Of a DNA stretch of 39,386 bases, positions 1 through 39,386 are shown one piece after another. Origin of the DNA: a virus (taxonomy: Duplodnaviria; Heunggongvirae; Uroviricota; Caudoviricetes); the IMG/VR virus record IMGVR_UViG_642979322_000008; one strand, written 5' to 3'. Each line of letters starts with the position of its first letter. The first letter of the stretch is position 1. Under the pieces are notes generated by a model, which saw nothing but the letters and a program-made list of their open reading frames with translations, was not told the origin of the DNA and did no database searches. Made by a program: the position numbers and the translations under genes.

Positions 1-531
1 CTAACCCGCTTTAGATTCTACCGGATTTGATTGCCTACTTGTCTCGGTTTTTTCCAAAATCTCTCTGACGCAATCGTCTGGCATATCTACAATCATCAAC
101 GCAGCCAGGCGCTTCCTGCCTTCTAGTTGTAATAAATCCTGGTTTTCTTTATCCAGCAGTGTCAGAACCGTCTCTACACCTTTGCGAGCAAGGAGATTGG
201 TTAACTGTTCTCGTTCGTCTTTCGTAAGGAATGAAAGCATCTGTGTAAGTTGATCTCCCTTATCACCAGAACAACCAAAATTACCACAAATACCAACATC
301 GTTTGGTGATTCACCCTTGCCCTCTTTAAGCCACTCAAGACTAACTCCTTCACTTTCAGAAATTCGTATAAGGATACTTTCTCTGGGGGCTGGTTGTGTT
401 TGTCCTCCCTTGAAATAGCTGTTTAATGTGTTGATATTGATTCCCCACGCTCTGGCAGCTGCACTTCTTGAAGGGTAGCGCTTTGTAAGCATTCCAATAC
501 GTTCAATAACAGGTTCTTTTCCCTGCGACAT
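1..531 (-). CDS. c: Mu-type repressor (c-like); C-terminus runs off the window start
   Basis: Leftward ORF divergent from ner, no stop within window; start chosen at ATG 531-529 preceded by GAGGTA (alternative in-frame ATG at 606); position and composition match Mu repressor layout. Confidence 0.65.
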   Translation of the reverse strand: MSQGKEPVIERIGMLTKRYPSRSAAARAWGININTLNSYFKGGQTQPAPRESILIRISESEGVSLEWLKEGKGESPNDVGICGNFGCSGDKGDQLTQMLSFLTKDEREQLTNLLARKGVETVLTLLDKENQDLLQLEGRKRLAALMIVDMPDDCVREILEKTETSRQSNPVESKAG

Positions 532-971: not shown

Positions 972-3062
972 ATGTATGTCATTGCAAAAGAACTGATTGG
1001 CGCGCCCGGAATGCCTGCTACAACAAAAGGTATTCGCCAGGCATTACAACGTTACGTACAAGGGAAAAGCTGTTGTTCCCGTCGTCGCTCAGGCTCTAAA
1101 GCAACTGAATACAGCATCGACTGTTTACCTGAAGTGACGCAGCAGGCATTACGTGAACGTTATGCCCTGCAACTGATGACGCAAAAAGCCGATGAATCAC
1201 CGGCTCCGGTGGTGACAAAGGCCAGACGCTCATCTGACGTGGTTGATGCGGTGGAGGCATATCGCGGATCACCACAACTGATGGTCGAACGCCTCAATGC
1301 CCTGACTGAAAACCAGCGCCAGGTGGCTGATGCACGAATCGCGATCGTCAGCGAAGTGATGAAAGTCGCGCAACAACCCGGTTTCAGCTGCGCGAAGGCT
1401 ATCCGGTTTATCGTTGACAACCTGGCACGTTCACAGCTGGACGAGCGCATTGTGGCAATGGTTGAGACGGCGAACGCCAAAAAGGGAAACAGCCGTGCGT
1501 TGAGTGAAATCACGCTGAAGCGATGGATTGCGGCCTTTAACAAGGCACAGAACGCCGCTGAACGCCTGCTTTTACTGGCACCGGGTAAACGCCAGGAAAT
1601 AAAAGCCGAAGATATTAACTGGCTGCCCGAATTTCTGGCGCAGTATCGCCAGTCAAACGGCCGACCAATGACCGAGGCTTACGAGGATTTTGTCGCTGAA
1701 TGGCAGCACCGGCACGCTGATGAGCCTTATATGCTCGATATCATGCCGTCTTATGACACCATTCGCCGCGCAATGAAGAAACTGCCGGAAGTGGTGAAAC
1801 AAAAAGGCCGGGTGACCGGCAGTGAATACCGCCAGCTTGAGGGATTCACGCGCCGCGACTGGTCCAGAATGCCGGTGAATTATGTCTGGATTGGTGACGG
1901 TCACGGCATGAAGCTGAAATGCGCACACCCGGTTCACGGTCGGCCATTTGCACCGGAAGTGACCTTTGTTATCGACGGTGGCACGCGCTTTGTGGTGGGC
2001 TGGAGCCTTGACCTGGCTGAAAATGTTTTCGCCGTAGCCGGTGCCATACAGCACGGCATTCGCCATCACGGCAAACCGTTTCTGTATTACTCGGATAACG
2101 GCTCCGGGGAAACCGCCGACATCCTGGATAAGGAGGTTGTGGGGATACTGCCGCGACTGGGGATTAATCACCCGACCGGGATTGCCGGTAATCCGCAGGG
2201 ACGAGGCATTATCGAACGGCTTAACCGCACATTACCGATGCGCATAGCCCGTAAATACCGCACCTATTTCGGGAAAGGTGCAGATCGCGAGACGTTACGC
2301 AAAACCAACCGCGATTTACGCTCGGCATTTACTGCCCTGCAACAGGGCAAACGGCTGAACGCCCGGCAGCAGTCAGCGATGCGTGATTTACCGTCCTGGT
2401 CTGAACTGATTGATGCCATTCGTGATGGTGTTGAGTGGTACAACAACCGGCCGCACGATGAATTACCGGTGAAGCCGAACGGCAAGCATTACAGCCCGGC
2501 GGAGTTCAGAAAAAAACGCCTGGCGGAAGAGGACACGGAAATTGAATGGCTGTCCGATGTGGAATTGCGGGACATGTTCCGGCCGATGGTGGAACGCCCT
2601 GTAAGACGCTGTGAAATACGCTGGCTGAATAATATTTACTACGCGCCCGAGCTGCGTGATGAGCATGGCCGCAAGGTGCTTATCAGCTATGACATTCATG
2701 ATGCCGAACGAATTACCGTACGTCGCCTGGATGGCAGCGTGATTTGCGAGGCGGTATGGGACGGTAATAAACGCGAAGCCTTCCCGGTTAGCGCGGAATA
2801 CTACAAACAGCAGCAACGCCTTAAAGGCATGCGTAAACGCGCAGAGGAAAAAATCCGTGATGCCGAGGATGAGGTTGTCAACGTGCTGGAGCACAAGCCG
2901 CAGGAGCCCTGGCTGGAAAACATCTATCGCCCGGTAGGTAATACGGTGGCCGTTCAGCAACCTGCCATTGATGATGAGCCTGATGAAGAATACGAGCGCA
3001 ATTTCCAGCGGGGATTGCAGTTGCTCGAAGCGAAATTAAAAGAAAATGACCCGCTGGCCTGA
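972..3062 (+). CDS. A: Mu-type DDE transposase A
   Basis: 696-aa ORF immediately after ner; size and position match MuA (663 aa); family assignment by recalled similarity. Confidence 0.88.
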   Translation: MYVIAKELIGAPGMPATTKGIRQALQRYVQGKSCCSRRRSGSKATEYSIDCLPEVTQQALRERYALQLMTQKADESPAPVVTKARRSSDVVDAVEAYRGSPQLMVERLNALTENQRQVADARIAIVSEVMKVAQQPGFSCAKAIRFIVDNLARSQLDERIVAMVETANAKKGNSRALSEITLKRWIAAFNKAQNAAERLLLLAPGKRQEIKAEDINWLPEFLAQYRQSNGRPMTEAYEDFVAEWQHRHADEPYMLDIMPSYDTIRRAMKKLPEVVKQKGRVTGSEYRQLEGFTRRDWSRMPVNYVWIGDGHGMKLKCAHPVHGRPFAPEVTFVIDGGTRFVVGWSLDLAENVFAVAGAIQHGIRHHGKPFLYYSDNGSGETADILDKEVVGILPRLGINHPTGIAGNPQGRGIIERLNRTLPMRIARKYRTYFGKGADRETLRKTNRDLRSAFTALQQGKRLNARQQSAMRDLPSWSELIDAIRDGVEWYNNRPHDELPVKPNGKHYSPAEFRKKRLAEEDTEIEWLSDVELRDMFRPMVERPVRRCEIRWLNNIYYAPELRDEHGRKVLISYDIHDAERITVRRLDGSVICEAVWDGNKREAFPVSAEYYKQQQRLKGMRKRAEEKIRDAEDEVVNVLEHKPQEPWLENIYRPVGNTVAVQQPAIDDEPDEEYERNFQRGLQLLEAKLKENDPLA

Positions 3063-9799: not shown

Positions 9800-10225
9800 A
9801 TGGCAGAAACTCAGATGAGCATGTTTGGTGGTGACAGTGAGCAACTGCACGCCCTTATCGACCGCCTTGATGACATCCCTGATGATGTTCTCAAAAAGAA
9901 CTGGCCGCGGACCCTGTCAGAACTGGTTGAAGTCACCGGCGCAGAACTTCAGCGTCAGGGGATTGAGCCGGTACTGGCCGGTAAACTGGCACGCAAGGTG
10001 GCTGCGGCTCAGGCAGCCTATATGGGCGGACGGGGTTATTACCTGCCGGTCGGGGAATCTCTCTTTGCCGAGCTGCGAAACAATGAGATATTTTCGCGCT
10101 GGGACCGGGGCGAGAAAATTGAATCCCTTCGCCGCCATTACCGGATGTCAGAAACCCAGATTTATACCGTCATACGCGAACAGCGCCGTCTGCATCTGGC
10201 AAGAACGCAACCGCCACTTTTCTGA
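9800..10225 (+). CDS. Mor/C-family transcription activator (middle/late gene activator)
   Basis: 141-aa ORF with C-terminal HTH (ETQIYTVIREQRRL); architecture like Mu Mor and C; only one such gene found. Confidence 0.75.
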   Translation: MAETQMSMFGGDSEQLHALIDRLDDIPDDVLKKNWPRTLSELVEVTGAELQRQGIEPVLAGKLARKVAAAQAAYMGGRGYYLPVGESLFAELRNNEIFSRWDRGEKIESLRRHYRMSETQIYTVIREQRRLHLARTQPPLF

Positions 10226-10296
10226 TATTCCGCAAAGCCTGCCGCCTCTCCTTCACCGTTACGCTGACTCAGAGAACATCATGAGACAGCGTAACA

Positions 10297-18013: not shown

Positions 18014-18189
18014 TTGTTTAAGGTATGCAAATGCATTACCTTACCCCCTTCAGGCGCGTGTCGTGATTTTCTAACCTGTATTTAACGGGCTTTAAAATCT
18101 GCGTGAAGCGCCTTTGTATTTTTCCCCTGGAAGCACTTCCTGAAATCCCGCAAAACCCGCCCTGAAAATTCCCGGCCTATGCTGCCGGA

Positions 18190-34261: not shown

Positions 34262-36301
34262 ATGACGTCCAAATGGGTTCAACTATCATCAATGCCCGGA
34301 AACTTTACTGTTAAAGTTTCCGGTGGTACAGCGGCATTTCTTGAGGCTCCCTTTCCTCCGGCCGAAACAAAAGGAGGAATGACATTTGCTGACTGTCTCA
34401 TCAGTTTTAATACACGGGATTGCCTGTGGGTAAGGCCAGTATCCGGTGATCCGAGTGTGGAAATTACCGGAGCGGGTATTGGTGCGGTCATTCCGTTAAG
34501 TGCTGATGTTGCCGGTACTGCTGAACCGTCAGACTGGGATAATGCTGAAACACATACCCGTCCGTCAGGAAATGAAACTGCTTCCAGCTCCCCTTCCTGG
34601 TATTACGTGGTGGTTCTTGCTGGTCAGTCAAACGGTATGGCTTACGGTGAAGGTCTGCCACTGCCGGAGACATATGACCGCCCCGAACCGCGTATTATGC
34701 AGTTAGCCCGTCGCAGTACAGTCACGCCGGGAGGTAAAGCCTGTCAGTATAACGACATCATTCTGGCCGACCACTGTCTGCATGATGTGCAGGATATGAG
34801 TGGAAAAAATCACCCGAAAGCGGATGTGGCTAAAGGGCAATATGGCACCGTGGGTCAGGGGCTTCACATTGCCAAAAAACTGCTGCCGTTTATTCCGGCA
34901 GATGCGGGGATTCTGCTGGTTCCCTGCTGCCGTGGTGGTTCTGCATTCACGGCGGGTGCTGACGGCACGTACAGTGACAGCACGGGTGCTTCAGAGGACT
35001 CAGCCCGCTGGGGTGTGGATAAGCCGCTGTATAAGGACTTAATCAGCCGGACAAAAGCGGCACTGGCGAAGAACCCGAAAAACCGCCTGCTTGCTGTGGT
35101 GTGGATGCAGGGCGAGTTTGATATTGATGCGAAGCCGACGGAGCATTCCGCGCTGTTTCTGGCGATGGTGGAAAAATTCCGCGCAGACCTGGCTGAACAG
35201 GCGGAACAGTGTACCGGTGGCAGTGCTGCTGGCGTTCCGTGGATTTGTGGCGATACCACGTATTTCTGGAAACAGAAAAATGAACCGGCATACCAGGCAA
35301 TCTATGGCGGCTACAAAAACAAAACAGATAAAAACATTCATTTCGTTCCATTAATGACAGATGAAAATGACGCGAATGTACCCACCAACAATCCGGCAGA
35401 AGACCCGGATATTGAATCCATTGGTTATTACGGCTCAACGTGGCGTAACAGTGCCGCCACCTGGACATCTGCGGACCGGGCCAGCCATTTCAGTTCATGG
35501 GCACGTCGTGGGATTATTTCCGACCGTCTGGCCACGGCAGTTCTGACTCATGCGGGGCGAACCACAGTAAAAGCCGATGTTCCATCTTCTGAAACTGAAG
35601 CACCAGTGCCGTCACCTTCAGAAACTGAAGCAGTAACCACAACACTGCTGTCTTATCGTGTCAGTGAGTCAGAAGGAAATCTGAAAGCCCAGGGCTGGGA
35701 GCCGGCTGGCGGTAAAGCTGAAATTATCAGTGATGCAGGAGGCACAGGTGGTAAGGCAATGAAACTGACCAAGGAAACAGGTAAATCATCCTGGTATCTG
35801 GATCATGATGCCGGTACTGGTGCTGAACTGCTGAAAAATGGTGGTTTAATCAGTTGTCGTTTTAAAGTACCTGGCGACCTGGTGGCAAACCAGTATGTCA
35901 TGGGGCTTTACTGGCCGGTTTCCTCTCTGCCGCAGGGTGTCACCCTGACAGGGGATGCAGGGAATAATCTGCTGGCATCGTTCTACATCCAGACAGACGC
36001 AAAAGACCTGAATGTGATGTACCACAATGCAAAAGTGGCAACAAATAACCAGAAACTGGGAACCTTTGGTGCATTTGATAATGAATGGCATACGCTGGCC
36101 TTCCGTTTTGCAGGAAATAACAGCCTTCAGGTTATTCCGGTTATTGATGGTCAGGATGGTGCCGCGTTTACCCTGACGCAGTCACCAGTAGGAACTTTCC
36201 CGGTGGACAAACTCCGCGTAACGGATATCACAAAAAATGCAACTTACCCGGTGCTGATTGACAGCATTGTGGTGGAAGTGAAAAAAGCGGTAACAGAATA
36301 A
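34262..36301 (+). CDS. SGNH/SASA-family carbohydrate O-acetylesterase-like protein (prophage NanS-p-like) with additional N- and C-terminal domains
   Basis: 679 aa; GQSN motif (VVVLAGQSNGMAYGEG) typical of sialate O-acetylesterase-type SGNH hydrolases; Ser/Thr/Pro/Glu linker (SETEAPVPSPSETEA) before a C-terminal beta-rich domain. Confidence 0.55.
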   Translation: MTSKWVQLSSMPGNFTVKVSGGTAAFLEAPFPPAETKGGMTFADCLISFNTRDCLWVRPVSGDPSVEITGAGIGAVIPLSADVAGTAEPSDWDNAETHTRPSGNETASSSPSWYYVVVLAGQSNGMAYGEGLPLPETYDRPEPRIMQLARRSTVTPGGKACQYNDIILADHCLHDVQDMSGKNHPKADVAKGQYGTVGQGLHIAKKLLPFIPADAGILLVPCCRGGSAFTAGADGTYSDSTGASEDSARWGVDKPLYKDLISRTKAALAKNPKNRLLAVVWMQGEFDIDAKPTEHSALFLAMVEKFRADLAEQAEQCTGGSAAGVPWICGDTTYFWKQKNEPAYQAIYGGYKNKTDKNIHFVPLMTDENDANVPTNNPAEDPDIESIGYYGSTWRNSAATWTSADRASHFSSWARRGIISDRLATAVLTHAGRTTVKADVPSSETEAPVPSPSETEAVTTTLLSYRVSESEGNLKAQGWEPAGGKAEIISDAGGTGGKAMKLTKETGKSSWYLDHDAGTGAELLKNGGLISCRFKVPGDLVANQYVMGLYWPVSSLPQGVTLTGDAGNNLLASFYIQTDAKDLNVMYHNAKVATNNQKLGTFGAFDNEWHTLAFRFAGNNSLQVIPVIDGQDGAAFTLTQSPVGTFPVDKLRVTDITKNATYPVLIDSIVVEVKKAVTE

Positions 36302-36307
36302 AAAAAT

Positions 36308-36334
36308 CCCGCCGGTCATGATATGGCTGGCGGG
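36308..36334 (-). terminator. GC-rich hairpin after the esterase gene with U-tract on the minus-strand side
   Basis: Stem CCCGCCGG / CTGGCGGG; A7 precedes it on the plus strand, which gives T7 after it on the minus strand. Confidence 0.35.
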
Positions 36335-36447
36335 AGCTACCTAACCCATAAAGGAAAATAAAAATACTCCCGAAGGAGTGGTTATCAGTCGCTTCGATGT
36401 TTTTACCCGATAACGAATTATGTAGTCAATATCAAAGGTAAGGTTAT

Positions 36448-36630
36448 ATGACATTCGTTCATACAATGCTGCTTTATTTCTGCGCTGTGGTCAGTGCGTT
36501 ATATCTGGTGAGCGGTGGTTATAAGGTCATCAGAAATTATATTCGCCGTAAAATTGATGATGCGGCAGCTGAAAAACTCAGTAAAACAGCACAGGCACCG
36601 TCATCCCCAAACGACCCGACCCCGCTCTGA
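36448..36630 (+). CDS. small membrane protein (one TM helix)
   Basis: 60-aa ORF, RBS AAGGTAAGG; hydrophobic N-terminus MLLYFCAVVSALYLVSGG. Confidence 0.4.
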   Translation: MTFVHTMLLYFCAVVSALYLVSGGYKVIRNYIRRKIDDAAAEKLSKTAQAPSSPNDPTPL

Positions 36631-36665
36631 TAACGGGGCAATATACCTGCAAAAGGAGAATATTC

Positions 36666-36911
36666 ATGCCAGAGATTAAAGGCACGGTTACTGAAGAGCT
36701 TGTCAAACAGGCACTTTATTCTGAAGAAGTGAACCGCGTGCTGAAGGCGCAGGTTCGCAAGGATTTTGAGGCACAAATCGACGCATATGTTGATGAAGTG
36801 CTGGCCCGAATGGTTGGCCGTTCTCCGGCTGAAAACAGCACGGAAAATGATCCTCAACCCGTAGAGCAACCAGAGCCGGTTCAGCCCGGAACTGACGGTA
36901 CTATGATGTAA
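36666..36911 (+). CDS. hypothetical acidic small protein
   Basis: 81-aa ORF, RBS AAAGGAG 7 nt upstream of ATG. Confidence 0.45.
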   Translation: MPEIKGTVTEELVKQALYSEEVNRVLKAQVRKDFEAQIDAYVDEVLARMVGRSPAENSTENDPQPVEQPEPVQPGTDGTMM

Positions 36912-36920
36912 CAATACCGA

Positions 36921-36940
36921 CCGGCAGGTTTCCCTGCCGG
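36921..36940 (+). terminator. hairpin terminator candidate after small gene
   Basis: Stem CCGGCAGG / CCTGCCGG, loop TTTC, followed by GTGAGTTTGTT. Confidence 0.45.
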
Positions 36941-37229
36941 GTGAGTTTGTTAATGCACGTTTTGTGTATTTTCCCTCCTGGGAGAACAGGCAGGACATAT
37001 CAGCATCCTGAAACAGGAAGCATTTTTGGGTTTGTATGTCTTGCCATTTTGAGATCGAGAACGGCGATAGATGAGCTGTAAGGGAGTCTTACAGGCAGGG
37101 CAAACAGGCTCTTTCATCCATGATAAAGATCTCCTTTTTATGCATCTCTGCTTTACAGGAGACCGGGGAATATCATAGGATACGCCACGAGCTCGAAGTA
37201 AAGCATTGATGCAAGTTTTTACAGATTGA

Positions 37230-37262
37230 CCCAGCATAGTTCCAGCTATGCTGGGTTTCACT
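37230..37262 (+). terminator. rho-independent terminator
   Basis: Perfect 10-bp stem CCCAGCATAG / CTATGCTGGG with loop TTCCAG followed by TTTCACTTTT. Confidence 0.6.
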
Positions 37263-37299
37263 TTTATGTAGTATCCTGTTGATTTGAAACATACTACAT

Positions 37300-37528
37300 A
37301 TACGCGTGATCCTACCTTCACTGTATAAAAAGTCAATAAAATGATCATTTTATGATCGTTTTCACCACCTAACTCTTCGTTTTCTTTAAGTAAATAATCA
37401 CCTCCCTGAATCATTGTTGATGACTTTTCAATCTATTTGTTGTATCAATTAAACAAATCGAATCGATCGTTTTTGTCGATCGATTGCATGAGAAAGGCAT
37501 CAACAACAAAGCAGGAGGTTATGCGGTC
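37300..37528. promoter_or_regulatory. com-mom upstream control region with GATC cluster
   Basis: GATC at about 37309, 37343, 37354, 37459 and 37473; palindrome CGATCG-N-CGATCG; RBS AGGAGG before com ATG. Confidence 0.5.
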
Positions 37529-37729
37529 ATGTATCGAAACATACGGTGCCGACACTGCAATAAGCTACTGGCACGGGCCAGTTTCAGTTATCTGGAAGTA
37601 AAATGTCCGCGCTGTAAAACCCTCAATCAAATCACATCTCCGAGCGCCACAGAGCACCCCACATACACAAGGAAATCCTGTCGTGGGGAACAGAAAGCAA
37701 GTCACATCCCGAATCATCAGCACGCCTGA
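37529..37729 (+). CDS. com: Com zinc-finger translational activator of mom
   Basis: [17 protein letters not shown]...EVKCPRCK matches Mu Com Cys4 pattern (IRCKNCNKLL...EIRCPRCK) as recalled; overlaps the mom start. Confidence 0.8.
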
Positions 37730-38420
37730 ACTTATTCGCTATAACGACAATATCGTTGGTTATGGCTCCCGTGAGTTGCGGGTTGAGACAATAAGTTGCT
37801 GGCTGGCCAGACTGGTCATCGTCAATAAACATTACAGCCACCGTTTCGTAAATAACTCCTACCTTCATCTGGGCATATTTTCAGAACGGGAACTTGTTGG
37901 CGTAATGCAATGGGGTTACGCCCTTAACCCAAACAGTGGTGCACGCGTCGTAACGGGTACGCAGAACCGAGAATATATGGAGCTTAACCGGCTATGGCTG
38001 CATGACTGTATGCCGAGAAACTCCGAATCAAGGGCAATCAGTTACGCGCTCAAGCTAATCAGGCAGCTTTATCCGCAGGTACAGTGGGTTCAGTCGTTTG
38101 CAGATGAGCGTTGTGGCTGTCTTGGTGTCGTGTATCAGGCAAGCAATTTTGATTATGTAGGCAGCCATGAATCAATATTCTATGAACTTGATGGCGAGTG
38201 GTATCACGAGATTTGCAGGAATGCCATTAAACGAGGCGGACAACGAGGTGAACATCTGAGGGCTAATATTGACAGAGCCAGTGTTCATAAGTTCCGACAG
38301 TTTCGTTACATCCGGTTTCTGAACAAGAGGGCCAGAAAACGCCTCAACACAAAGCTATTCAAAGTCCAGCCTTACCCAAAACCACAAACAGTTAAAACTG
38401 GTTTGAAAGAGAGTGAATGA
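37683..38420 (+). CDS. mom: Mom DNA-modification enzyme (adenine N6-carbamoylmethylation)
   Basis: 245-aa ORF directly after and overlapping com, last gene before the prophage right end; start codon uncertain. Confidence 0.8.
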
Positions 38421-38439
38421 GCGCTTAAAAACTCATTCT

Positions 38440-38550
38440 AAAACTCAAAAGAAAAGCGCCGATTTAGTATCAAATAAGTTGCGTATCGGCGTTTTTCAGC
38501 GGTATCAAATGAAATGCAAATCGGTATCAAAAAAATCGCCGCGCTATACA
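38440..38550. repeat. prophage right end (attR) with candidate transposase-binding repeats
   Basis: Three GTATCAAA-type repeats (about 38467, 38502, 38524); element ends ...CTATACA, whose complement reads 5'-TGTAT like the Mu left-end start. Confidence 0.55.
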
Positions 38551-39386
38551 CGCATCGTTCCATTCAGCAGCGCGATATCTGCATGGTGTTTCAGTCATAC
38601 GCTCTGTTCCCGCATATGTCGCTGGGCGAAAACGTCGGCTACGGGTTAAAGATGCTCGGCGTGTCGCGTAGCGAAGTAAAGCAGCGGGTGAAAGAGGCGC
38701 TGGCAATGGTGGATCTGGAAGGGTTCGAGGACCGCTATGTCGACCAGATTTCCGGTGGTCAGCAACAGCGCGTGGCGCTGGCCCGCGCGTTGATCCTCAA
38801 ACCAAAGGTGCTGCTGTTTGATGAGCCGTTAAGTAACCTCGATGCCAACCTGCGCCGCAGCATGCGCGATAAGATCCGCGAGCTGCAAAAGCAGTTTAAT
38901 ATCACGTCGCTCTACGTGACTCACGATCAAAGTGAGGCCTTCGCGGTTTCCGACACTGTGCTGGTGATGAATAAAGGTCACATCATGCAGATTGGCTCAC
39001 CGCAGGATCTCTATCGTCAGCCAGCCTCCCGCTTTATGGCAAGTTTTATGGGCGACGCCAACCTGTTCCCGGCGAACTTTAGCGAAGAGTATGTCGATAT
39101 CTACGGTTATCGCCTGCCGCGCGCGGCGCATTTCCCGGTGCAAGGTAGCGGCACCGTCGGCATTCGCCCGGAAGCCATCACCTTAAGCAATCACGGCGAA
39201 GAGAGTCAGCGTTGTGTTATTCGCCATGTCGCCTACATGGGGCCGCAGTACGAAGTGACCGTAGAGTGGCATGGACAGGAGATTTTATTACAAGTAAACG
39301 CCACCCGTTTACAGCCCGATATTGGTGAGCACTATTACCTCGAAATCCATCCTTACGGGATGTTTGTTTTAGCGGATGCGGCATAA
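38551..39386 (+). pseudogene. fbpC: host ABC-transporter ATP-binding protein gene (ferric-uptake FbpC/AfuC-like), 5' part missing due to prophage insertion
   Basis: Frame reads ...[23 protein letters not shown] (Q-loop), LSGGQQQRV signature, Walker B LLFDEP, H-loop VTHDQ and C-terminal regulatory domain; Walker A absent, so the N-terminal ~60 codons lie elsewhere. Gene name from recalled similarity only. Confidence 0.6.

What the first reader, a model, noticed from the sequence alone, without database searches (positions are those of the whole stretch)
36943..37528. Structured non-coding stretch upstream of com: terminator-bounded block, direct repeats, GATC cluster
About 590 bp without a convincing plus-strand ORF lies between the cargo genes and com. 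It contains a strong intrinsic terminator (37230-37262), direct repeats AACAGGCAGG (near 36985 and 37095), an inverted repeat GTAGTAT...ATACTAC (37270-37300) and at least five GATC sites, two in a CGATCG-N-CGATCG palindrome just before the com RBS. In Mu, mom transcription is gated by Dam methylation of upstream GATC sites and by the late activator C; this region looks like an expanded version and could also encode a ~300-nt sRNA ending at the terminator.
Basis: partly seen in the sequence, partly recalled or inferred. Interest (0 to 1): 0.55.

Follow-up and report, generated by a model that had tools for sequence, protein, structure and literature searches.

The report
Hidden small gene beside mom switch
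The "non-coding" stretch upstream of com in this Mu-like prophage is really two ordinary things side by side: an overlooked small zinc-ribbon gene on the opposite strand, with its own promoter and a folded leader, and a short Mu-type Dam/OxyR control region for com-mom.

Summary
The sequence features are all real, but they do not form one enlarged mom control region or a 300-nt sRNA. The window is an Sp18-type Mu-like prophage of E. coli.

**Leftward gene.** 36950-37117 on the minus strand encodes a 55-aa zinc-ribbon protein.
- The ORF is intact in all 12 sequence variants.
- Substitutions run 7 synonymous to 4 non-synonymous, against 2-3 to 8-9 in every other frame.
- A 43-46% identical homologue sits in Salmonella Mu-like prophages at the same place, divergent from com.

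**Its promoter and leader.**
- A sigma-70 promoter (TTGACT-16-TAnGAT, 37336-37309) is conserved in three lineages and carries a GATC in its -10.
- A ~185-nt leader of three hairpins follows.
- This leader is better conserved between E. coli and Salmonella (75-82%) than com, mom or the zinc-ribbon coding sequence.

**mom control region.**
- Only about 37413-37528 is mom control DNA, homologous to Mu's GATC/OxyR module.
- The Mu C box is not found.

**Annotated ORF.** The 154-aa ORF on record (ECs_4996) is probably spurious.

Interest is moderate.

The parts
36921..36940 (.). Hairpin CCGGCAGG-TTTC-CCTGCCGG between the stop of the DUF826 gene (36911, + strand) and the stop of the zinc-ribbon gene (36950, - strand). 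Likely a shared bidirectional terminator.
   Evidence: Inverted repeat I2. The equivalent hairpin in L004 is flagged as a minus-strand terminator. The Salmonella homologue also has a terminator directly after its CDS.
36950..37117 (-). Small zinc-ribbon gene: 55 aa, MKEPVCPACKTPLQ...CPACSPRRENTQNVH. Most relatives have a 56-aa form starting MDKEP.
   Evidence: Translation. Intact in 12 of 12 unique variants. 7 synonymous to 4 non-synonymous changes in this frame against 2-3 to 8-9 in the five others, binomial p = 0.0095. Salmonella homologue family at 43-46% identity with both CPxC knuckles and GKTY-P conserved, in the same position relative to com.
37130..37136 (-). Shine-Dalgarno AAGGAGA of the zinc-ribbon gene. 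It overlaps GATC 37128-37131. An extra C at 37115 in this window shifts the usable ATG from 37121 to 37117 and fuses the ORF to an upstream frame.
   Evidence: Sequence. Upstream context printed for all variants. SD block conserved in Salmonella. The indel is polymorphic.
37141..37213 (-). Hairpin 1: a 73-nt extended stem-loop ending 5 nt before the SD in the leftward leader.
   Evidence: Plus-strand fold of 37138-37266: -52.9 kcal/mol, z = -7.5. Same hairpin in the leader folds of window and Salmonella. 94% of cells paired, but only 2 compensatory pairs, reached by 54 of 500 shuffles.
37228..37257 (+). With tail 37258-37267 TTCACTTTTA it fits a plus-strand intrinsic terminator in this allele. 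It is also the middle hairpin of the leftward leader.
   Evidence: Four alleles keep a 10-13 bp stem with changes on both arms: A ACCCAGCATAG/CTATGCTGGGT, B CCCAG(A)ATAG/CTATCTGGG, C GGTCCAGATAG/CTATCTGGACC, D GACCCGGTAG/CTACCGGGTC. Only A has a U tract. The stem is absent in L004.
37265..37300 (-). It is a 5'-terminal stem-loop of the leftward transcript.
   Evidence: I13. Stem kept and loop fully diverged in Salmonella. Deleted in L004.
37309..37336 (-). Sigma-70 promoter for the leftward gene: -35 TTGACT (37336-37331), 16-bp spacer, -10 TAGGAT (37314-37309). Predicted start near 37302. GATC 37308-37311 overlaps the -10.
   Evidence: One of only two promoter-like sites in 36200-38600. The orthologous site is flagged in L004 (TTGACT-16-TACGAT) and in Salmonella L170 (TTGACT-16-TAAGAT), with diverged spacers.
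37336..37353 (.). Perfect 18-bp palindrome ATAAAATGATCATTTTAT centred on GATC 37343, directly upstream of the leftward -35. Candidate regulator or Dam-sensitive site. GATC 37354 follows.
   Evidence: Sequence and repeats I5/I14. GATC 37343 is conserved in L004 and Salmonella. GATC 37354 is not.
37413..37485 (+). com-mom control module. It holds OxyR-consensus-like repeats, a TATC (37443-37446) where Mu has GATC I, and GATC II and III (37465, 37478) inside the palindrome AATCGATCG-N7-CGATCGATT (37461-37485).
   Evidence: Invariant across all E. coli variants. Homology to Mu and other genera. OxyR consensus scan.
37486..37528 (+). Short segment between GATC III and com, with the SD AGGAGG at 37514-37519. 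Any -10 must lie here or in the palindrome. It is poor in this window (AAAGGC/CATCAA) and better in relatives (AAAGAT/TATCAT; Salmonella TATACT).
   Evidence: Alignments. Inference only; no promoter passes the scan.
36950..37414 (-). Annotated 154-aa hypothetical ORF (ECs_4996 / WP_115801860). Judged not to be a real gene.
   Evidence: annotation. PGAP marks it frameshifted or with an internal stop in L008-L011. Frame switches are visible in the protein alignment. Two stops in L004. It spans three mosaic modules. No gene is called there in Salmonella.

Best explanation
The stretch is a composite of two back-to-back transcription units.

**Unit 1, leftward (minus strand).**
- A sigma-70 promoter at 37336-37309, whose -10 (TAGGAT-C) contains a Dam site, starts an mRNA near 37302.
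- Its ~185-nt leader folds into three hairpins: 37300-37265, 37257-37228 and 37213-37141.
- The leader runs into a strong SD and a 55/56-aa basic zinc-ribbon protein gene (37117-36950).
- The unit ends at the hairpin shared with the convergent DUF826 gene.
- In this hairpin-2 allele the plus-strand side of the stem, followed by a T run, probably also stops rightward read-through before it reaches the toxic com-mom operon.

**Unit 2, rightward.**
- The ~110 bp next to com is this lineage's version of the Mu mom control region.
- A GATC pair sits in a palindrome inside OxyR-like repeats. Unmethylated DNA would be bound by OxyR and repressed, and Dam methylation would relieve this.
- Unlike Mu, the GATC module lies where Mu has its C box and -35. 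Methylation control and promoter recognition therefore overlap.

**Shown versus inferred.**
- Shown: the gene, its conservation and synteny, the promoter footprint, the hairpins and the homology to Mu.
- Inferred: transcript ends, terminator activity, Dam/OxyR/C dependence, and the function of the protein. My guess for the protein is a small nucleic-acid-binding regulator.
For: **The gene**
- ORF intact in 12 of 12 variants.
- Synonymous excess only in its own frame.
- Salmonella family at 43-46% identity with conserved CPxC...GKTY-P...CPxCSP.
- Same divergent position, 390-410 bp from com, in com-mom and com-Dcm prophages.

**The promoter**
- Flagged independently in the window, L004 and L170. 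Hexamers are conserved and spacers diverged.

**The leader**
- Same three-hairpin fold in window (-65.7 kcal/mol, z = -4.7) and Salmonella (-65.0, z = -5.7).
- 75-82% identity over 37118-37313, against 60% for the zinc-ribbon CDS, 72% for com and 74% for mom.
- Four hairpin-2 alleles all keep the stem.
- Hairpin-3 stem is kept while its loop diverged.

**Variable cargo**
- In L004 and L006, different leftward ORFs begin 20-30 nt from the left edge of the same conserved block.

**mom module**
- Homology to Mu and other genera.
- OxyR consensus maxima.
- GATC density.
- Dam/OxyR/C control of Mu mom is from the literature (PMC3378877, PMC2909390).
Against: - There are no transcript data, so the start near 37302 and termination at about 37262 are predictions.
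- Covariation for hairpin 1 is weak: 2 compensatory pairs, reached by 54 of 500 shuffles.
- Single-sided changes in hairpin 1 fit G-U pairing slightly better on the plus strand (6 versus 3).
- L004 lacks hairpins 2 and 3 and has 7 of 25 hairpin-1 pairs broken.
- The U tract exists only in allele A.
- One variant (L038) has Cys5 changed to Tyr in the first knuckle.
- The synonymous excess rests on only 11 sites.
- No C box was found upstream of com. The box shared by the lys and I promoters is absent.
- No -10 passes the promoter scan.
- The protein matches no Pfam, PHROG or PDB family.
Confidence: 0.68

Rival explanations
1. One reading: the whole 590 bp is an enlarged Dam- and C-gated mom regulatory region that also produces a ~300-nt plus-strand sRNA ending at the 37230-37262 terminator.
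For: - GATC enrichment over the whole stretch.
- Terminator-like hairpin with a T run on the plus strand.
- Very stable plus-strand fold of 37138-37266, z = -7.5.
- G-U-compatible changes slightly favour the plus strand.
Against: - Only 37420-37528 is shared by all com-mom loci.
- 36950-37140 is the antisense of a conserved coding sequence and is replaced by unrelated DNA in sister prophages.
- No plus-strand promoter in 36900-37150.
- No Rfam match.
- U tract missing in three of four hairpin alleles.
- The mom module is shorter than in Mu, not longer.
Confidence: 0.07
2. Cis-antisense pair. The plus-strand promoter-like site TTTACA-18-TAGGAT (37152-37181) makes a ~75-nt sRNA ending at hairpin 2. 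This sRNA is fully complementary to the leader of the leftward mRNA and controls the zinc-ribbon gene. The hypervariable hairpin 2 plus linker (37214-37258) would set specificity so that co-resident Mu-like prophages do not cross-talk, as in plasmid copy-control and type I toxin-antitoxin RNAs.
For: - The site is flagged in the window and again in Salmonella.
- Hairpin plus T run in allele A.
- A ~45-nt block with four alleles sits in flanks that are 95-100% identical. Linker and hairpin recombine independently in L005.
- Up to four copies of this region occur per E. coli genome.
Against: - The promoter lies inside the conserved hairpin 1 and may be conserved for that reason alone.
- It is degraded in L004 (TCGGAT, 17-bp spacer).
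- Alleles B, C and D lack a U tract, so the sRNA would have no defined 3' end.
- The downstream protein is not toxin-like (basic, not hydrophobic), and the cargo gene differs between prophages.
Confidence: 0.13
3. The public annotation is right: 36950-37414 (minus) encodes a 154-aa protein (ECs_4996 / WP_115801860; PHROG 26524), and the structures are incidental.
For: - Open frame of 154 codons in this window, identical in Sakai and many O157 genomes. The cluster has 205 member sequences.
- PHROG 26524 matches residues 1-104.
- A mild, non-significant excess of third-position differences against L004: 8, 9 and 17 at codon positions 1, 2 and 3.
Against: - PGAP calls it frameshifted or internally stopped in L008-L011.
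- Relatives read the C-terminal third in another frame.
- The window's long frame exists only because of one extra C at 37115.
- Two stops in L004.
- A 15-nt gap, about 50% identity and no gene call in Salmonella.
- No SD before ATG 37414.
- The ORF runs across a conserved promoter and three mosaic modules.
Confidence: 0.05

Closest known systems
Bacteriophage Mu mom operon control region (Pmom: Dam sites, OxyR repression, activator C, divergent momP2)
   Same: - Sits directly upstream of com-mom.
- Shares the sequence blocks ATCAATTAAA, TCGATCG-N8-GATCGATT with Mu.
- GATC pair spaced 13-14 bp.
- OxyR-consensus score equal to or above that of Mu's own GATC region.
- A leftward promoter exists nearby, as momP2 does in Mu.
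   Different: - Only two GATCs; the site I position reads TATC.
- GATC III is 51 nt from the com ATG (77 nt in Mu).
- The Mu C box (TTATgccccaATAA), poor -35, T6 run and TAAGAT -10 have no counterpart.
- The leftward promoter is about 170 bp away, not overlapping, and drives a real gene.
OxyR/Dam epigenetic switches of agn43 (E. coli) and gtr (phage P22, Salmonella)
   Same: - GATC pairs 13 bp apart inside OxyR half-sites, as in gtr (PMC2909390).
- Several overlapping OxyR-like half-sites (37413, 37435, 37453, 37466) could allow alternative occupancy.
   Different: - No evidence of phase variation here.
- Only one of the candidate full sites contains GATCs.
- Binding is untested.
Dam-sensitive promoters with GATC in the -10 hexamer (for example IS10 transposase pIN; from general knowledge)
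   Same: The leftward promoter keeps TAnGAT-C, with GATC overlapping the -10, in three diverged lineages. A second conserved GATC lies just upstream of the -35.
   Different: - No experimental link to methylation.
- The promoter drives a prophage accessory gene, not a transposase.
Com, the zinc-finger translational activator of mom
   Same: Both are about 55-65 aa, basic, with four cysteines in two CxxC knuckles. They are encoded next to each other in the same prophage module.
   Different: - No sequence similarity above background. Pfam Zn_ribbon_Com matches Com only.
- The knuckle spacing differs.
- Function is unknown.
Long structured 5' leaders with antisense control (type I toxin-antitoxin loci such as hok/sok and zorO/orzO; from general knowledge)
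   Same: - Small ORF behind a leader of more than 170 nt made of stable hairpins.
- An opposite-strand promoter-like site plus hairpin lies within the leader.
- A hypervariable stem-loop is present.
   Different: - The protein is basic and cysteine-rich, not a hydrophobic toxin.
- The antisense RNA is hypothetical.
- The downstream ORF is interchangeable among prophages.

Membership tests
Mu-type mom control region (Dam/OxyR module) | Lies immediately upstream of a com-mom operon | tested here: met
   Com (PF10122) and Mom (PF25680) follow at 37529 and 37683.
Mu-type mom control region (Dam/OxyR module) | Sequence homology to the Mu GATC region | tested here: met
   AATCGATCG...GATCGATT aligns with Mu. 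The multi-genus alignment shows the same blocks.
Mu-type mom control region (Dam/OxyR module) | Three clustered GATC sites | tested here: not met
   Two GATCs (37465, 37478). The site I position reads TATC (37443-37446). Mu and other genera have three, spaced 18 and 13-14 bp.
Mu-type mom control region (Dam/OxyR module) | OxyR binding site overlapping the GATCs | tested here: inconclusive
   Consensus scan only: 13 of 20 at 37444-37480 (includes both GATCs) and 14 of 20 at 37413-37449. These are the best positions in the window. Mu's own GATC region scores 13 of 20. No binding data.
Mu-type mom control region (Dam/OxyR module) | C-activator box and poor -35 / 19-bp spacer / -10 between the GATC sites and com | tested here: not met
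   About 26-32 nt are missing relative to Mu. The box shared by this prophage's lys and I promoters (CTGAWATYCCGCAAARCCYGCC, 10222 and 18140) has no match within 3 mismatches near com.
Mu-type mom control region (Dam/OxyR module) | mom expression depends on Dam, OxyR and C | not testable with these tools
   Needs fusions in dam, oxyR and C backgrounds.
Rho-independent terminator (plus strand, 37228-37267) | GC-rich stem-loop followed by a U tract | tested here: met
   13-pair stem with tail TCACTTTTAT. Hairpin fold of 37186-37266: -25.8 kcal/mol, z = -4.2.
Rho-independent terminator (plus strand, 37228-37267) | Terminator features conserved in relatives | tested here: not met
   Alleles B, C and D keep the stem, but the tails are CCCTTTATG-like and fail the scan. 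L004 has no stem.
Independent sRNA gene (~300 nt, plus strand) | Own promoter, conserved body, defined 3' end, or a known RNA family | tested here: not met
   No promoter in 36900-37150. The body overlaps a coding sequence and a mosaic segment. No Rfam hit reaches E < 0.2, and all fall far below their gathering scores.
Protein-coding gene ECs_4996 (154 aa, PHROG 26524) | Reading frame maintained among relatives | tested here: not met
   Frameshifts and stops. Not called in Salmonella.
Small zinc-ribbon protein family (E. coli 55/56 aa; Salmonella 52/53 aa hypothetical proteins) | Intact ORF with conserved CPxC...CPxC and purifying selection | tested here: met
   Invariant residues include C6, P7, C9, G25-K26-T27-Y28, P30, F36, C44, S45 and P46; C41 is nearly invariant.
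Small zinc-ribbon protein family (E. coli 55/56 aa; Salmonella 52/53 aa hypothetical proteins) | Conserved genomic position with SD, promoter and terminator | tested here: met
   divergent from com, promoter TTGACT-16-TAAGAT, terminator after the CDS.
Small zinc-ribbon protein family (E. coli 55/56 aa; Salmonella 52/53 aa hypothetical proteins) | Protein is made and binds zinc | not testable with these tools
   Needs tagging, proteomics or metal analysis.

The most novel reading that the evidence does not exclude
The block between the zinc-ribbon gene and com would be a bidirectional, Dam-read epigenetic and RNA control unit.
- Both divergent promoters carry conserved GATCs: one in the leftward -10 and one just upstream of its -35, and two in the com-proximal OxyR-like palindrome.
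- The unusually conserved three-hairpin leader, or a short antisense RNA made from within it, would act as a regulatory RNA.
- Its hypervariable middle hairpin would set element specificity.
- The small basic zinc-ribbon protein would be a second Com-like RNA- or DNA-binding regulator of the modification operon.
Probability: 0.15. Interest if true: 0.6.

Novelty: new variant of a known kind. Interest (0 to 1): 0.38.

Why it matters
**Annotation.** A widely copied hypothetical ORF (ECs_4996, also a PHROG family) appears to mask a real 55/56-aa gene in E. coli O157-type Mu-like prophages. Its Salmonella counterpart is annotated but uncharacterised.

**mom control.**
- The classic Mu arrangement (Dam sites, then C box, then promoter) is not universal. 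In this lineage the Dam/OxyR palindrome sits where the activator box should be.
- The same control region serves either mom or a cytosine methyltransferase.

**The leader.**
- It is more conserved than the neighbouring coding sequences and holds a four-allele hairpin.
- That makes it a compact candidate for a new cis-regulatory RNA next to a toxic DNA-modification operon.

None of this overturns known principles.

Tried and rejected
- **Rfam.** E-value scan of 36200-38600: only noise (tsr24 E = 0.23, mir-246, IS102).
- **Covariance model of hairpin 1.** Searched Mu, 21 loci of other genera and L007-type loci. Only the training lineages were found.
- **C-box search.** The box shared by the lys and I upstream regions is absent near com. 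Word matching of 37400-37528 against the rest of the window gave nothing useful.
- **Zinc-ribbon protein.** Pfam, PHROGs and a PDB profile search found nothing above threshold.
- **Literature.** No paper mentions ECs4995-4997. The one sRNA paper that mentions Sp18 only reports loss of the prophage. Two Mu OxyR papers (PMC401183, PMC147061) are not held.
- **Viral-contig pattern scans.** TCTGYTTTACAGGAG was too unspecific. AAAAGTCAAYAAAATGATCA added one useful locus, L065, and two chance hits.
- **Small conserved peptide in the leader.** Rejected. The 39-aa ORF 37173-37292 and the N-terminal part of the long ORF are broken by indels or stops in other alleles and in L004.
- **Long-range pairing 37400-37429 with 37491-37519.** It would mask the com SD on read-through RNA (z = -4.6). 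It is not conserved: the anti-SD is mutated in L004, L008 and L011 and absent in L007.
- **Hairpin-2 allele against downstream gene (mom or dcm-like).** No consistent association.
Full report
**Context**

The window is a Mu-like prophage of the Sp18 type of E. coli O157:H7 Sakai.
- Positions 36900-37700 are 100% identical to NC_002695.2 5078076-5078876 and to many other STEC genomes. They match 233 of 5426 complete E. coli genomes, with up to four copies per genome.
- The local gene order is gin, a DUF6645/SASA-esterase gene, DUF1378, DUF826, the stretch in question, then com and mom.
- In Mu itself gin is followed after only about 95 bp by com.

**Checking the observation**

- Hairpin 37228-37257 (13 pairs, tail TCACTTTTAT) is the best terminator-like site in 36200-38600.
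- The 10-nt inverted repeat lies at 37265-37274 and 37291-37300. The palindrome AATCGATCG-N7-CGATCGATT lies at 37461-37485.
- There are seven GATCs against 1.9 expected (P = 0.004). The stretch 37292-37481 is the GATC-densest 190 bp of the whole 39-kb window.
- The "direct repeat" is only a 9-mer, ACAGGCAGG. On its own that is no more than chance.
- The claim of a non-coding stretch considered the plus strand only. Both the original Sakai annotation and PGAP place a 154-aa minus-strand ORF over 36950-37414.

**The annotated long ORF is probably not a gene**
- Homologues occur only in close E. coli relatives. They read the C-terminal third in a different frame: KEPVCPACKTPLQ against KSLFALPVRLPYSS, which is the same DNA shifted by one base.
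- PGAP marks the ORF as frameshifted, or with an internal stop, in four variants of 95-98.5% identity.
- The 154-codon frame in this window exists only because of one extra C at 37115.
- A 74%-identical relative (L004) has two stop codons in it.
- The ORF also runs across three separately inherited segments:
  - 37420-37531 is present in all com loci.
  - 37142-37420 is present in some.
  - 36950-37140 is present only in the Sp18 type.

**A real small gene on the minus strand**
- 36950-37117 encodes MKEPVCPACKTPLQLIYRRSRSQNGKTYKPKNASCFRMLICPACSPRRENTQNVH. The two ACAGGCAGG repeats are the reverse complement of its two Pro-Ala-Cys blocks.
- The ORF is intact in all 12 unique variants, as a 55-aa or 56-aa form. 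Both states of the C indel keep an in-frame ATG behind the SD AAGGAGA.
- Of 11 variable sites, 7 are synonymous in this frame. Only 2-3 are synonymous in each of the five other frames (binomial p = 0.0095).
- An exhaustive profile-free search found one distant relative, a 53-aa protein at 43-46% identity. It belongs to a Salmonella enterica family of 52-53-aa hypothetical proteins. The listed members of that family are counted on roughly a thousand contigs in total.
- The family keeps both CPxC knuckles and a GKTY-P motif.
- In two Salmonella Mu-like prophages the gene sits in the same place, divergent from com and 390 bp away. In one, com is followed by mom. In the other it is followed by a cytosine methyltransferase.
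- The protein matches no Pfam, PHROG or PDB family.

**Promoter and leader of that gene**
- The scan finds only two sigma-70-like sites in 36200-38600. One is minus-strand TTGACT-16-TAGGAT at 37336-37309.
- The orthologous site is flagged independently in L004 (TTGACT-16-TACGAT) and in Salmonella (TTGACT-16-TAAGAT). The 16-bp spacers have diverged.
- The -10 always reads TAnGAT-C, so a Dam site overlaps it. A second GATC (37343), at the centre of the perfect palindrome ATAAAATGATCATTTTAT, lies just upstream of the -35 and is also conserved.
- A start near 37302 gives a leader of about 185 nt that folds into three hairpins: 37300-37265, 37257-37228 and 37213-37141. The fold energy is -65.7 kcal/mol (z = -4.7). 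The Salmonella leader folds the same way at -65.0 kcal/mol (z = -5.7).
- Between E. coli and Salmonella the block 37118-37313 is 75-82% identical. That exceeds com (72%), mom (74%) and the zinc-ribbon coding sequence (60%).
- In L004 and L006, different leftward ORFs start 20-30 nt from the left edge of the same conserved block. The block therefore behaves as a promoter-plus-leader cassette in front of exchangeable cargo.

**The hairpins in detail**
The four alleles are:
  - A: ACCCAGCATAG/CTATGCTGGGT.
  - B: CCCAG(A)ATAG/CTATCTGGG.
  - C: GGTCCAGATAG/CTATCTGGACC.
  - D (Salmonella): GACCCGGTAG/CTACCGGGTC.
- Only allele A, the one in this window, has a T-rich tail. The others fail the terminator rule (for allele D). 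What is conserved is the hairpin, not termination.
- In this window the hairpin probably also stops rightward read-through from the cargo genes before com-mom. That step is an inference.
- *Hairpin 3* keeps its stem in Salmonella while its loop is completely different.
- *Hairpin 1* is very stable (z = -7.5 together with hairpin 2) but mostly invariant. It has two compensatory pairs, which is not significant (54 of 500 shuffles).
- Single-sided changes in hairpin 1 fit G-U pairing slightly better on the plus strand. L004 has lost hairpins 2 and 3. The strand on which these structures act is therefore not settled by sequence alone.

**The com-proximal module**
- 37420-37528 is 88-92% conserved in every E. 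coli com locus examined, and the palindrome is invariant.
- It aligns with Mu's GATC region.
- Related prophages in Symbiopectobacterium, Pantoea, Apirhabdus and an unnamed enterobacterial genome have three GATCs spaced 18-19 and 13 bp, as Mu does at 18 and 14 bp.
- Here the first site reads TATC.
- A scan with the OxyR consensus ATAGnTnnnAnCTAT-N7-ATAGnTnnnAnCTAT places the four best positions of the entire window (13-14 of 20) at 37413, 37431, 37435 and 37444. The best position in Mu's own GATC region scores 13 of 20.
- The GATC pair spacing of 13 bp equals that of the OxyR half-sites of the P22 gtr switch (PMC2909390).
- The distance from GATC III to the com ATG is 51 nt, against 77 nt in Mu. 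The segment that holds Mu's C box, -35 and T run is missing.
- The motif shared by this prophage's lys and I upstream regions is absent near com.
- The promoter must therefore overlap or adjoin the palindrome. Relatives have better -10 candidates there: AAAGAT/TATCAT in L006, and TATACT in Salmonella.
- Relative to Mu this is a compressed arrangement, not an expanded one. Dam, OxyR and C dependence remain inferred from Mu (PMC3378877).

**Verdict**

- A conserved small zinc-ribbon gene has its own Dam-site-bearing promoter, a strongly conserved structured leader and a shared terminator.
- It lies back to back with a short Mu-type Dam/OxyR control region for com-mom.
- Two things remain unexplained and mildly interesting: why the leader is more conserved than the genes around it, and why its middle hairpin exists in four stem-preserving alleles.
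- A cis-antisense or other RNA-based control is possible (about 0.15) but not demonstrated.

Noticed in passing
L009 1831-3037; L010 1831-3037; also L038, L040, L043, L059; L170 1398-2610: In several E. coli and Salmonella Mu-like prophages the same control region and com are followed by a DNA cytosine methyltransferase (PF00145) instead of mom. Com-dependent control therefore appears to be reused for a different DNA-modification enzyme.
   Followed up: partly
window 34262-36911: The cargo between gin and this region is a DUF6645/SASA sialate-O-acetylesterase-like gene, then DUF1378 and DUF826. From general knowledge this trio is typical of the late region of lambdoid Stx phages (nanS-p type). 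Here it sits in a Mu-like prophage.
   Followed up: no
window 10222-10243 and 18140-18161: A 22-nt box, CTGAWATYCCGCAAARCCYGCC, occurs exactly twice in the window (0.01 expected). One copy is upstream of the endolysin gene and one is upstream of the protease/scaffold gene, at the positions of Mu Plys and PI. It is a likely binding box for this prophage's late activator C, and it is absent upstream of com.
   Followed up: partly
window 37400-37429 with 37491-37519: A long-range inverted repeat includes ACCUCC opposite the com SD GGAGGU (fold z = -4.6). It could mask com translation on transcripts that start upstream of the true promoter. It is not conserved in L004, L007, L008 or L011.
   Followed up: partly
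L005 about 2590-2670 (also L053, L057, L058, L065): A tandem ~80-bp duplication covers the end of hairpin 1, the linker and hairpin 2. The two copies carry different linker and hairpin alleles, which shows recombination among alleles.
   Followed up: partly
window 37115: A one-base (C) insertion polymorphism is found in the window, L039, L054 and L056. It moves the zinc-ribbon start codon 4 nt further from its SD. In this window it creates the 154-aa ORF that annotation pipelines pick up, and PHROG 26524 appears to be built on that ORF.
   Followed up: yes
L004 1943-2470 (minus); L006 2273-2479 (minus) and 2110-2310 (plus); L007 2060-2320 (minus): Sister prophages carry other small leftward genes in the same slot. 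They include a 175-aa zinc-ribbon plus transmembrane protein (PHROG 13160, unknown function), a 68-aa ORF and an 86-aa ORF. The position next to com is a hotspot for exchangeable accessory genes.
   Followed up: partly
window 38514-39386 compared with L001 5145-5342: The prophage is inserted in a different host gene here (an ABC-transporter ATPase gene, truncated at its 5' end) than in Sakai (sorM). Other copies sit in puuB, melA, paa and cit loci, as expected for a transposing Mu-like phage.
   Followed up: no
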